From contig NC_043005.1 of assembly GCF_006345805.1 (NCBI RefSeq), positions 19,282,001 through 19,346,000 on the forward strand: 64,000 bases of DNA, in the 5' to 3' direction. The notes below the pieces were generated by a model. It was not told the DNA's origin and did no database searches. It saw only the letters and a list, made by a program, of their open reading frames with translations. The DNA comes from Octopus sinensis (taxonomy: Eukaryota). The position numbers were made by a program, and so were the translations under genes. This document shows, one piece after another, positions 35,064 through 38,301 of this stretch (positions are counted from its first letter, which is position 1; each line of letters opens with the position of its first letter).

Positions 35064-35123
<60 letters not shown>

Positions 35124-35245
35124 ATTTAAATAATCAGAAAATGGAGAAAACTTTAGATCAACAAATCAGTTCGGCCACATCTGTAGCTTATTATTTAATA
35201 AAAATCCAGGGCTGTGAAAGGTTTCAGAACATTTATAAAAAGAAG

Positions 35246-35293
35246 GACTTACAGCTGTTTCCGGGATACTTTGTATGTCCCTTCATCAGAGAC
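35246..35293 (-). ncRNA. Minimal type I hammerhead
   Basis: GTCT-CTGATGA-AGGGACATACAAAGTATCCCG-GAAAC-AGCT-GTA-AGTC; core intact, one stem I mismatch. Confidence 0.7.
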
Positions 35294-35341
35294 GGTGCGA
35301 AAAAATGATTAATAACTATTGCTTAATCATTTTCTCGCACC

Positions 35342-35389
35342 GTCTCTGATGAAAGGATATATAAAATATCCCGGAAACAGCTTTAAGAC
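35342..35389 (+). ncRNA. Minimal type I hammerhead (helix III G>T variant)
   Basis: GTCT-CTGATGA-AAGGATATATAAAATATCCCG-GAAAC-AGCT-TTA-AGAC. Confidence 0.62.
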
Positions 35390-35612
35390 CTTCTCTTTAT
35401 AAATGTTCTGAAAACTTTCACAGCCTTGGATTTTTTTTATCCCATTCTGTTAATTTTTTTATATATATGCATGCTAATATATGACCTACGTTGGACTCCT
35501 CATTCGCATAATTACCGAACCTGGGGCTCAACTATAGTCCGTCCATAGCACTTACTCAGCATTACCTGACACCTTTGGATCTTCTTGACACCATTACCTC
35601 TCATAACCTATG

Positions 35613-35680
<68 letters not shown>

Positions 35681-35741
35681 TGTGTGTGTGTGCGTGTGTG
35701 TGTGCGTGCGTGTGTGTGTATATGTGTGCGCGTGTGTGTGT

Positions 35742-36020
35742 AGGCGCATGACTCAGTGGTTAGAGCATCGAGCTTACGATCGTGAGGTTGTAAGTTCGAA
35801 TCCCGGACCGGGCTGCGTGTTGTGTTCTTGAGCAAGACACTTTATTTCACGTTGCTCCAGTTCACTCAGCCGTAGAAATGAGTTGCGATGTCACAGATTC
35901 CAAGCTGTATTGGCCTTTGCCTGTCCCTTGGATAACACTGGTGGTGTGGAGAGGGGTGGCCGGTATGGGTGACTACTGGTCTTCCATAAACAACCTTGCC
36001 CGGATTTGTGACTGGGAGGG
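35742..36020 (+). mobile_element. SINE family B, 3'-truncated (inverted copy at 36305-36586)
   Basis: GGCGCATGACTCAGTGGTTAGAGC..GTTCGAATCCCGG..TCTTGAGCAAGACACTT. Confidence 0.85.
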
Positions 36021-36624
36021 TTAGGGTTATACTAACCGACTAACATAACATAACATTTATATCACATAAATGTTTTGTATTAAATAATAAGCTACAGATG
36101 TGGCCCAATTGATTTGTTGATCTAAAGTTTTCTCCATTTTCTGATTATTTAAATTTGATTCCTGGTAAATTTTTGCTTATTTTGTTGCTACCTGTACTCT
36201 ACGAGCATAGTGTGCCTGCATACCCATGACCAGAGATAACATGGGTAACTGATGCAGATAGTGAATATGGATATTCTATCCCTTAGTCGGTTAGTATAAC
36301 CCTAACCCTCCCAGTCACAAATCCGGGCAAGGTTGTTTATGGAAGACCAGTAGGCACCCATATACCGGCCACCCCTCTCCATGCCACCCATGTTATCCAA
36401 GGGACGGGCAAAGGCCAATACAGCTTGGAATCTGTGACATCGCAACTCATTTCTACGGCTGAGTGAACTGGAGTAACGTGAAATAAAGTGTCTTGCTCAA
36501 GAACACAACACGCAGCCCGGTCCGGGATTCGAACTTACAACCTCACGATCGTAAGCTCGATGCTCTAACCACTGAGTCATGCGCCTACACACACACACAT
36601 ATACACACACACGCACGCACACAC

Positions 36625-36675
<51 letters not shown>

Positions 36676-36894
36676 GGTTATGAGAGGTAATGGTGTCAAG
36701 AAGATCCAAAGGTGTCAGGTAATGCTGAGTAAGTGCTATGGACGGACTATAGTTGAGCCCCAGGTTCGGTAATTATGCGAATGAGGAGTCCAACGTAGGT
36801 CATATATTAGCATGCATATATATAAAAAAATTAACAGAATGGGATAAAAAAAATCCAAGGCTGTGAAAGTTTTCAGAACATTTATAAAGAGAAG

Positions 36895-36942
36895 GTCTTA
36901 AAGCTGTTTCCGGGATATTTTATATATCCTTTTATCAGAGAC
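36895..36942 (-). ncRNA. Hammerhead copy with core mutation (CTGATAA)
   Basis: Inverted duplicate of 35342-35389 with a G>A change in CUGAUGA. Confidence 0.5.
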
Positions 36943-36990
36943 GGTGCGAGAAAATGGTTAAGCAATAGTTATTAATCATTTTTTCGCACC

Positions 36991-37038
36991 GTCTCTGATG
37001 AAGGGACATACAAAGTATCCCGGAAACAGCTGTAAGTC
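36991..37038 (+). ncRNA. Minimal type I hammerhead
   Basis: GTCT-CTGATGA-AGGGACATACAAAGTATCCCG-GAAAC-AGCT-GTA-AGTC. Confidence 0.7.
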
Positions 37039-38301
37039 CTTCTTTTTATAAATGTTCTGAAACCTTTCACAGCCCTGGATTTTTATCTCATTCTGTTAAT
37101 TTTACATATGTATGTGAGCAAATGTGTGTATATGTGTACGTGTACAAGAAAAGTATGTGAATGTATGTGAACATTGACAAGTGTATCAATTTGATTTACC
37201 ATCCATATTTATAAAATACTACAATTAGTCGTCATTTTTTACGGTACGGGGCCAGATTGATATCAATAATATTAATACGCTAACTTTATGTTTTTAGTAA
37301 GTACCTGTTGTGTGCGTCACACTTACTTCAAAGAAGTAGCAAAGCGAGATAGAGGAGGACAGAGAGAAAGTAAGAGAGAGAAAGAGAGAGAGAAAGAGAG
37401 TGAAAGAGACAGTGAATCGTGACAGCGTTCATTTGTGTTTTTAAATGTTTATCACATCGCAAGGGAAGTAGATACATAGATGCATATACACATTGTTAAA
37501 TCAAAAGCGGGCGAGGAGAGGGACACAAAGGAAGTGAAAGAGAAAGAGAGAAAGAAAGTGAGAGAGATAGTAGATACATAAATCCAAAGAAAAGGTCATA
37601 CATAGATACATGCACACAGCAAATATTAAATGTCAATTTCACTTTTCATTACCAAACGAGGATAAAATCAACTCACAAATGGCTAAGTACTCCACAGACA
37701 TGCATAACATTAATGTAGTTCTCAGGGAGATTCAGCCTCACACGGAATATGACAAGGCTGGCCCCTTTGAATTACAGCTACAACTCGTGACATGTATATA
37801 TGAATGTATTTGTGTGTATAGTTTAGATTAGTTAAAACATGTTTGCAATAATAAGTGTCGCGTGGTGGAAATAAACGCAATTACCAAACTTTCATTCATT
37901 AATCCATTTATTATTTCGTTCTTTTGTATTTCAATTTGTACATGAAATTTCTTTGAATATGTACGATGTTTTAAGGTTAAATAATAATAATTCCGTTTAC
38001 GTTTGTGTAACTGATATATTTTGGTTGGATTATATAGCCATTGGTGTTACATTACTTTCTATATTCTGTAACTGTTACAATATACTTTTCTAGGCCTGAA
38101 TATTTTGGAGGGAGTGGGCCAGTTGATTAGATCGACCCCAGTACACAATTCTTACTTAATTTATCGACGCCGAAAGGACGAAAGGCAAAGTAGGTCTCGG
38201 CAGAATTTGAACTCAGAATGTAAAGACAGGCGGTCATAATATACAAACGTTTCTCATGACACCAGTACACTGTTTGCTGATGCTTACATTTTTTATGTTT
38301 T

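What the first reader, a model, noticed from the sequence alone, without database searches (positions are those of the whole stretch)
35122..37103. Nested inverted duplication carrying four hammerhead cores
Architecture seen: A(35122-35200), B(35198-36043), spacer containing inverted A'(36078-36155), inverted B'(36283-37086). Each B arm contains its own fold-back of about 240-280 bp with a hammerhead on each strand, plus a truncated SINE. The right fold-back is complete (36826-37103) while the left is cut at A with an ATA overlap, so B is probably the derived copy. The arms differ by substitutions (e.g. CTGATGA/CTGATAA, GTTGCTCC/GTTACTCC), which favours a real event over assembly error. Inference: template switching or PLE-mediated transduction. 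A transcript in either direction would carry two same-sense hammerheads about 1.65 kb apart (a retrozyme-like layout that could release the intervening RNA) or fold into about 800 bp of dsRNA.
Basis: partly seen in the sequence, partly recalled or inferred. Interest (0 to 1): 0.75.

Follow-up and report, generated by a model that had tools for sequence, protein, structure and literature searches.

The report
Local inverted duplication of Penelope remnants
A 0.9-kb stretch of old jumping-gene debris was copied upside-down next to itself, likely by DNA repair, and because it already held the two-armed stub of a Penelope-type retrotransposon it now shows four decayed self-cutting-RNA motifs that are predicted to be inactive, so this is ordinary genome scarring.

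Summary
The nested inverted duplication is real and B is the derived copy. Arms differ at 9 of 802 aligned bases, with derived changes on both. Two of three testable junctions appear in short-read contigs; the A|B junction does not. The four hammerheads are simply two, duplicated. [quoted passage not shown] This layout is published, and this scan noted it before in other genomes. The spacer is the end of a second dispersed family that runs on into B', making B' native. No donor exists elsewhere in the assembly, and the inserts are several times older than the duplication, so transduction is unlikely. Best reading: template-switching repair at a (TA)n tract copied two neighbouring segments in inverted orientation. 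All four motifs carry lesions, most of them older than the duplication, and each is predicted to be locked by its own antisense arm (57-65 kcal/mol). It fails the sequence criteria of a retrozyme. A read-through RNA would form about 800 bp of dsRNA; transcription is untested. Ordinary.

The parts
34905..35064 (.). Left flank: an older, unrelated dispersed repeat
   Evidence: 1431 first-look candidates, best other copies 78-82% identical
35065..35122 (.). (TA)n tract, left boundary of the inserted DNA; inferred break or insertion site
   Evidence: sequence; junction with A has 0-1 shared base
35123..35200 (-). A: derived inverted copy of 36078-36155 (family-2 sequence)
   Evidence: 2 substitutions in 78 bases, both derived in A; shares the private variant at 36104 that 0 of 9 other copies carry
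35198..36043 (-). B: derived inverted copy of 36283-37086
   Evidence: 9 substitutions in 802 aligned bases; starts 17 bases inside the Penelope stub end and stops inside the family-2 element
35198..35608 (+). Duplicated Penelope-like stub: inverted arm 35198-35312, 10-base loop, direct arm to 35457, one-sided tail 35458-35608
35246..35293 (-). Hammerhead-like motif H2 (copy of H4): helix I mismatch, three helix II changes
35342..35389 (+). Hammerhead-like motif H1 (copy of H3): core intact, helix III palindrome broken (G to U), first helix II pair lost
35609..35737 (.). (TA)n(GT)n microsatellite, 44 bases longer than its counterpart in B'
35738..36021 (+). 3'-truncated SINE with a tRNA-like head (box A/B-like motifs judged by eye), duplicated copy
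   Evidence: 87-89% to 2 fuller copies that continue about 50 bases further; head sequence; ARAGORN finds no tRNA gene
36044..36060 (-). 17-base inverted piece of family-2 sequence forming a small hairpin with 36065-36073; either the old element's own 5' mini-inversion or the first templated step
   Evidence: sequence; origin unresolved
36061..36305 (+). 3' part of a second dispersed family, likely a second Penelope-like element; contains A' (36078-36155) and the first 23 bases of B'
   Evidence: 1045 first-look candidates, best others 89-90%; all 9 other copies examined continue past 36282 with the bases that begin B'
36283..37086 (+). B': native template of the duplication
   Evidence: continuous with family 2 at its left end and with the complete stub end at its right
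36305..36590 (-). Native 3'-truncated SINE
   Evidence: its junction with family 2 occurs only twice in G000, in the two arms
36676..37103 (-). Native Penelope-like (Hydra-type) stub: tail 36676-36825, direct arm 36826-36961, loop, inverted arm 36972-37103
   Evidence: family traced to RT and GIY-YIG copies
36895..36942 (-). Hammerhead-like motif H3: as H1 plus core G8 to A, a change made after the duplication
   Evidence: G in 91 of 93 aligned family stretches and in 28 of 28 copies
36991..37038 (+). Hammerhead-like motif H4: core intact, helix I mismatch, three helix II changes

Best explanation
This is a real local inverted duplication, likely made by template-switching DNA repair, of a stretch that already held the two-armed stub of a Penelope-like retrotransposon, so the four hammerhead motifs are passive, decayed passengers that are predicted to be inactive. 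Shown: (1) the fold-back is a member of a dispersed RT/GIY-YIG family; (2) the ancestral order was (TA)n, family-2 end, cut SINE, microsatellite, Penelope stub, with B' native; (3) A and B are copies of these local sequences, and the copying is younger than the inserts. Inferred: a break or stalled fork at the (TA)n tract left a 3' end that folded back and copied 36283 to 37086, switched through ATA microhomology to 36078 and copied to 36155, then rejoined the (TA)n end. This is a snap-back or MMBIR-type templated insertion; the polymerase is unknown. Predicted: any RNA crossing the locus folds into long hairpins, not ribozymes.
For: Family: 2980 and 4355 first-look candidates (40 scored each); 480 exact copies of a 22-base motif against 0 for the control. 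The 15 other fold-backs aligned differ in their centres (one near-identical pair apart), and by eye 13 of 15 have the tail on one side only. 12 of 28 direct-arm copies have an inverted partner. RT precedes GIY-YIG on one strand in 5 of 35 loci, and 8 of 20 GIY-YIG-region loci reach the hammerhead within the fetched flank. Polarity: 9 of 9 family-2 copies continue into B'. No donor: the family-2|SINE junction occurs twice in 2.72 Gb, both here; next-best spacer match 89-90%. Age: arms 1.1% apart (95% CI 0.5-2.1), against 3.9%, 7.6% and 6.5% of the native inserts from their family majorities. Reality: derived changes on both arms, 4 left, 5 right, 2 unresolved, including one CpG decayed in opposite directions; X1 contigs 36014-36094 and 36199-36310 cover two junctions without mismatch at depth 53.8 and 56.5. 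No editing trace: 5 A>G against 4 T>C on the tail-bearing strand. Folding: forcing the hammerhead helices costs 57-65 kcal/mol. Published layout: PMC4209133, PMC8557442, PMC3846280. Published multi-template inverted insertions: PMC8421209.
Against: Microhomology is clear at only one of three junctions (ATA; 0-2 bases at the others). The insert (about 920 bases) is far longer than the templated insertions in the passages read, whose templates lie within 100 bp. The A|B junction is not covered by any listed contig; the 146-base X1 contig there carries 17 unlaid letters, the length of the native end, and its depth (71.4) is under twice the single-copy depth. The site is a (TA)n tract at the 5' end of a likely Penelope insert, which is also what Penelope enzymes target. 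SINE sites were polarised on only 2-5 copies. Substitutions are uneven: 2 of 411 against 7 of 306, post-hoc p=0.04. Pfam scores for RT and GIY-YIG lie below the curated cut-offs.
Confidence: 0.7

Rival explanations
1. Penelope enzymes made the duplication in cis: the endonuclease nicked the (TA)n tract and the reverse transcriptase folded back and copied neighbouring host DNA, or a local RNA, with the same template jumps that give these elements their inverted arms.
For: The geometry equals a Penelope head-to-head insert. The target is (TA)n at the 5' end of a likely Penelope copy. Hydra elements insert into (TA)n (PMC8557442 section 11). Template jumps and host capture between pLTRs are described (PMC3846280 passages).
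Against: No new element sequence came in with the insert. Both local families are 4-8% diverged while the arms are 1.1% apart, and no young copy appeared among the scored hits. There is no A-to-G trace in the copied hairpin. The end at 37086 is not a hammerhead cleavage site (predicted after 37034).
Confidence: 0.15
2. The whole 35123-37103 unit was retrotransposed here from elsewhere as a 3' transduction with a 5' inversion.
For: Head-to-head symmetry; host genes flanked by pLTRs are reported (PMC3846280 passage).
Against: No donor in G000. The right end coincides with the stub's own family boundary. Organism B holds an exact 71-base match to the locus-specific arm, which suggests the stub is old.
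Confidence: 0.05
3. Part or all of the duplication is an assembly or chimeric-read artefact, for example two alleles joined head to head.
For: The A|B junction is not shown by any listed contig, one bin (35174-35190) has no cover, and the depth of the shared contig in X1 is only about 1.3-fold.
Against: The novel B|spacer junction is present at the same depth as the native junction. The shared contig stops at 35326, one base before the first arm difference. Both arms carry their own derived changes. X4 depth is 126 on the shared part against 64 at the junction bin (weak, different thresholds).
Confidence: 0.07
4. The locus works as a retrozyme-like unit: two same-sense hammerheads release and circularise a 1.65-kb RNA.
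For: H1 and H4 keep CUGAUGA and GAAA and lie 1649 bases apart on the + strand. Minimal hammerheads with a palindromic helix III are thought to act as dimers (PMC4209133).
Against: Both motifs have helix lesions. The mixed dimer helix is -7.4 against -11.1 kcal/mol for the family form. Each core is paired with probability above 0.99 in its fold-back, whose antisense arm is transcribed first. The minus-strand pair includes the G8 mutant. The unit is single-copy and not tandem.
Confidence: 0.03

Closest known systems
Head-to-head insertions of endonuclease-bearing Penelope-like elements with an inverted 5'-truncated pLTR and one-sided tail (PMC8557442, PMC3846280; dual minimal hammerheads on opposite strands 100-700 bp apart, PMC4209133)
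   Same: Inverted truncated arm next to the direct arm, one hammerhead per strand, tail on one side, variable centres, (TA)n flanks.
   Different: The tail is about 150 bases rather than 30-40. The hammerhead has an extra G before GAAA, and the family majority core is CCGAUGA (18 of 28). Here the whole stub was later duplicated.
Hydra clade of C-terminal EN+ Penelope-like elements (PMC8557442 section 11; its supplement lists Hydra-1_Obim from an octopus)
   Same: C-terminal GIY-YIG, CxCX5C linker, no CCHH cysteine pair, CxxC and CxH around the conserved E and N, hammerhead, (TA)n targets.
   Different: RWK was not found, DKT is unclear, and the element looks longer than the usual <3 kb. No tree was built and identity to Hydra-1_Obim was not compared.
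Templated insertions from MMBIR or template switching (PMC8421209) and snap-back synthesis-dependent MMEJ (PMC5728401)
   Same: Inverted copies of nearby DNA, several templates in one insert, short microhomology at a switch, fixed as a germline variant.
   Different: The insert is about 920 bases with templates up to 1 kb from the site, longer than in the passages read. Microhomology is clear at only one junction.
Metazoan non-LTR retrozymes (PMC7229834; bioRxiv 10.64898/2026.07.22.740005)
   Same: Type I hammerheads of Penelope kinship; two same-sense motifs on one strand.
   Different: Not a tandem repeat, spacing 1.65 kb rather than 150-450 bases, minimal and decayed motifs, ribozymes sequestered, single copy.

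Membership tests
EN+ Penelope-like element (fold-back family) | Reverse transcriptase followed by a C-terminal GIY-YIG endonuclease in longer copies | tested here: met
   Walk from the hammerhead to GIY-YIG to RT; RT then GIY-YIG on one strand in 5 of 35 loci; Pfam RVT_1 E=0.0015 and GIY-YIG E=0.0028, both under cut-off, on broken frames
EN+ Penelope-like element (fold-back family) | Inverted 5'-truncated copy at the 5' end and a one-sided tail | tested here: met
EN+ Penelope-like element (fold-back family) | Minimal type I hammerhead in the terminal repeat: extra base after A9, 7-8 bp helix II, 4-5 bp helix I, palindromic helix III | tested here: met
   Extra A, 7-bp helix II, 4-bp helix I, ACAGCTGT in 22 of 28 copies; deviates by an extra G before GAAA
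Hydra clade | CxCX5C linker before GIY-YIG | tested here: met
   19 of 35 loci match the pattern, at least one of them microsatellite noise
Hydra clade | [quoted passage not shown] | tested here: met
   One cysteine only between VIY and YIG; TCKFC form among 15 and TCNH form among 25 of 35 loci
Hydra clade | RWK and DKT motifs in the RT N-terminus | tested here: inconclusive
   DKAGN and YITGN in two decayed copies; no convincing RWK
Hydra clade | Groups with Hydra RTs in a phylogeny | not tested
   no reference sequences fetched
Neptune clade (my first guess, from memory) | CX2-5CxxC linker and CCHH motif | tested here: not met
Non-LTR retrozyme | Head-to-tail tandem repeats of 150-450 bases, each with a hammerhead | tested here: not met
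   inverted layout, 1649-base spacing, unrelated DNA between
Non-LTR retrozyme | Hammerhead free to adopt its active fold | tested here: not met
   predicted cost 57-65 kcal/mol
Non-LTR retrozyme | Multi-copy mobile unit | tested here: not met
   composite junction only at this locus
Non-LTR retrozyme | Expressed as monomeric linear and circular RNA | not testable with these tools
   no RNA holder listed
MMBIR or snap-back templated insertion | Insert is an inverted copy of nearby DNA, possibly from several templates | tested here: met
MMBIR or snap-back templated insertion | Microhomology at the junctions | tested here: inconclusive
   ATA (6 of 7 bases with one mismatch) at A|B; 0-2 bases at the other two
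MMBIR or snap-back templated insertion | Empty site in an ancestor or relative | not testable with these tools
   G000 has no relatives held; contigs of other organisms are fragmented in these repeats

The most novel reading that the evidence does not exclude
Penelope reverse transcriptase, nicking at (TA)n and folding back as it does to make its own inverted arms, runs on into neighbouring host DNA and builds kilobase inverted duplications in cis. These elements would then be a steady source of near-perfect long dsRNA substrates for RNA editing and silencing in this genome.
Probability: 0.12. Interest if true: 0.55.

Novelty: new member of a known kind. Interest (0 to 1): 0.15.

Why it matters
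It would matter if a genome-wide count tied such duplications to Penelope ends, because that would give these elements a new role in structural variation and in making long dsRNA.

Tried and rejected
Rfam gave no hammerhead family, only chance hairpin and microsatellite hits. No RNA holder was listed and the RNA-guess run X16 laid 0 contigs on 35123-35608; neither says anything on expression. Bins without cover prove nothing alone. The ORF scan of the window showed transposon-like fragments and no recognisable host exon near the locus (by eye, not scanned against Pfam), so the gene context is unknown. The Neptune assignment was dropped after the motif check. Fixed A-to-G hyper-editing, a lead from earlier notes, was tested and not seen. 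A single event together with the family-2 insertion was rejected on divergence (6.5% against 1.1%). A MITE-like unit moving as a fixed palindrome was rejected because the centres differ between copies. The PDB sequence search with an RT fragment found nothing meaningful, and the Atlas did not hold the query. Literature searches for Penelope-driven inverted duplication of flanking DNA (listings only) showed no such paper, which is a weak negative. The cephalopod editing search was seen as a listing only.

Full report
Observation. B (35198-36043) is the reverse complement of B' (36283-37086) with 9 substitutions, one 2-base indel and 44 gap columns in the microsatellite; A (35123-35200) is the reverse complement of 36078-36155 with 2 substitutions. 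Each B arm holds a fold-back and a SINE cut about 50 bases short. Four hammerhead-like cores are present; Rfam does not score them. The window lies on contig C9 of G000.

The fold-back is an ordinary Penelope stub. Searches of G000 give 2980 first-look candidates for the fold-back and 4355 for the arm plus tail (40 scored in each). A 22-base motif has 480 exact matches against 0 for the reversed control. I aligned 16 distinct loci of the 28 fetched, the window's own included. The centres differ among the 15 others except for one near-identical pair, and by eye 13 of 15 carry a tail on one side only. Of 28 copies chosen by arm and tail, 12 have an inverted partner within the fetched flank. Walking upstream through longer copies leads to a GIY-YIG frame and then to an RT frame with a YRDD motif. 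RT precedes GIY-YIG on one strand in 5 of 35 loci. Pfam scores are below cut-off (E=0.0015 and 0.0028), as the frames are broken. The motifs CxCX5C, no CCHH pair, CxxC and CxH fit the Hydra clade as defined in section 11 of PMC8557442; RWK and DKT were inconclusive and no tree was built. That paper's supplement already lists a Hydra family from an octopus. The inverted truncated arm with a one-sided tail is described in PMC8557442 and PMC3846280, and dual minimal hammerheads on opposite strands 100-700 bp apart in PMC4209133. Earlier notes of this scan reached the same reading on other genomes (unchecked).

Which copy is native. The spacer is the 3' part of a second dispersed family (1045 candidates, best other copies 89-90%). 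All 9 other copies examined continue past 36282 with the bases that begin B', so B' is native at its left end and B ends inside the element. At the other end B' reaches the stub's family boundary (37103), whereas B stops 17 bases short at a shared ATA. Five of the 9 family-2 copies match a hammerhead-like core upstream, so it is likely a second Penelope-like family; no reading frame was traced for it. The junction between family 2 and the cut SINE occurs twice in 2.72 Gb with up to one mismatch, once in each arm. No donor is therefore present in this assembly.

Age and reality. The arms are 1.1% apart (9 of 802; 95% CI 0.5-2.1). The native inserts lie 3.9% (11 of 283), 7.6% (10 of 132) and 6.5% (15 of 232) from their family majorities; the comparison copies were the best-scoring hits, which makes these distances conservative. 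The duplication is thus several times younger than the insertions. Of the 11 substitutions in A and B, 4 are derived on the left, 5 on the right and 2 are unresolved; one CpG decayed to TG on one arm and CA on the other (SINE sites rest on 2-5 copies). In run X1, contigs 36014-36094 and 36199-36310 match without mismatch at depth 53.8 and 56.5. Against: no listed contig crosses A|B, the bin 35174-35190 is empty, and the 146-base X1 contig over 35198-35326 has 17 unlaid letters, the length of the native end, at depth 71.4. That contig stops one base before the first arm difference. The A|B junction is unconfirmed. Run X2, of another organism, has an exact 71-base match to the locus-specific arm, which suggests the stub is old but says nothing on the duplication.

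Mechanism. Reading outward from the centre, the inserted strand is 36283 to 37086, then 36078 to 36155, then (TA)n. This is what a 3' end at the (TA)n tract would make by folding back on its own strand, switching once through ATA, and rejoining (inferred). Inverted, multi-template insertions from nearby DNA are reported as germline variants (PMC8421209), and snap-back synthesis is described in PMC5728401. The present insert is longer than those cases, and only one junction shows clear microhomology. The 17 bases at 36044-36060 may be an older mini-inversion or a first templated step. Penelope enzymes acting in cis cannot be excluded, since the geometry and target suit them. But nothing new of the element was inserted, no young copy was seen, 37086 is not the predicted cleavage site, and there is no editing trace (5 A>G against 4 T>C on the tail-bearing strand). 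Such young inverted duplications are not common in my sample: among 28 non-fold-back pairs of 150 bases or more in 87 loci (294 kb), one exceeded 97% and it was direct. Fold-backs are common: 53 in those loci, which were chosen for these families, and 7 in the 84 kb around the window, two of them ours.

The ribozymes. H1 and H3 share a G-to-U change that breaks the helix III palindrome (G in 27 of 28 copies) and a lost first helix II pair. H2 and H4 share a helix I mismatch and three helix II changes. These lesions predate the duplication. H3 later lost core G8; PMC4209133 treats C3-G8 as a covarying pair. In each fold-back the hammerhead lies in the downstream arm, so its antisense is made first. 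Forcing the hammerhead helices costs 57-65 kcal/mol, and the three intact cores are unpaired with probability at most 0.004. The mixed dimer helix is weaker than the family form (-7.4 against -11.1 kcal/mol). Minimal hammerheads cleave poorly even as designed dimers (PMC4209133). Retrozymes are 150-450-base tandem repeats (PMC7229834; bioRxiv 10.64898/2026.07.22.740005), which this is not. Among the first 100 of 480 motif hits there is already one same-sense pair about 1.05 kb apart and four head-to-head pairs, so such spacings are not special. A read-through RNA is predicted to form about 800 long-range pairs; whether one exists is untested.

Papers seen: PMC4209133, parts 1-2 of 4 of the text; PMC8557442, passages, section 11 whole and supplement rows by search; PMC7229834, PMC3846280, PMC8421209 and PMC5728401, passages; the bioRxiv preprint, part 1 of 5 (its supplements were not seen and cover few invertebrates by its methods); all others as listings. 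The hammerhead figures and supplements of PMC4209133 were not seen and may already show the extra-G variant. Hammerhead numbering and the fragility of (TA)n tracts are recalled, not from a call.

Verdict. Real, explained, ordinary: a young local inverted duplication, likely a repair scar, over old Penelope and SINE debris. New member of known kinds; interest 0.15.

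Noticed in passing
L032, L033, L034, L036, L038 (upstream of the part homologous to window 36061): Family-2 copies carry a hammerhead-like core whose helix II is extended to an 87-88 base predicted hairpin, with a palindromic helix III and a weak helix I (5 of 9 copies matched). 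The window copy is truncated below it.
   Followed up: partly
L041-L068: The family-1 hammerhead majority core is CCGAUGA (18 of 28; CUGAUGA 7, CCAAUGA 3, both CpG-decay forms), and most copies have an extra purine before GAAA, as does family 2. Possibly a lineage-specific variant; activity unknown.
   Followed up: partly
window 36826-37103 and loci: The inverted arm usually ends at the element's internal AT-rich stretch just before the tail and is followed by target (TA)n, which suggests it is resolved by annealing there and would explain the one-sided tail.
   Followed up: no
window 35198-35608 versus 35738-36043: Arm differences are uneven: 2 of 411 in the Penelope part, 7 of 306 in the SINE part (post-hoc p=0.04). 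CpG content, arm-to-arm conversion or chance.
   Followed up: no
L072:1-483 and 778-1263: A very young direct duplication, 99.4% over 486 bases.
   Followed up: no
window 61041-61243 and 62984-63186; 21181-21826; 1190-2351: Other inverted pairs in the window: 93.6% over 203 bases; a head-to-head SINE pair; an old nested inverted pair with a hammerhead-like motif near 1855.
   Followed up: no
window 43254-43302 (- strand): A separate minimal hammerhead-like motif of another family.
   Followed up: no
L100, L102, L108, L113 (between RT and GIY-YIG): The family-1 frame has an Asn/Thr-rich linker, recalling the N-rich inserts of rotifer Penelope elements in PMC3846280.
   Followed up: no
window 4726-5487, 10242-10868, 12967-13578, 27943-28689, 55425-55895: Open frames that look by eye like LINE and mariner-type transposon fragments (labels recalled, not scanned).
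   Followed up: no
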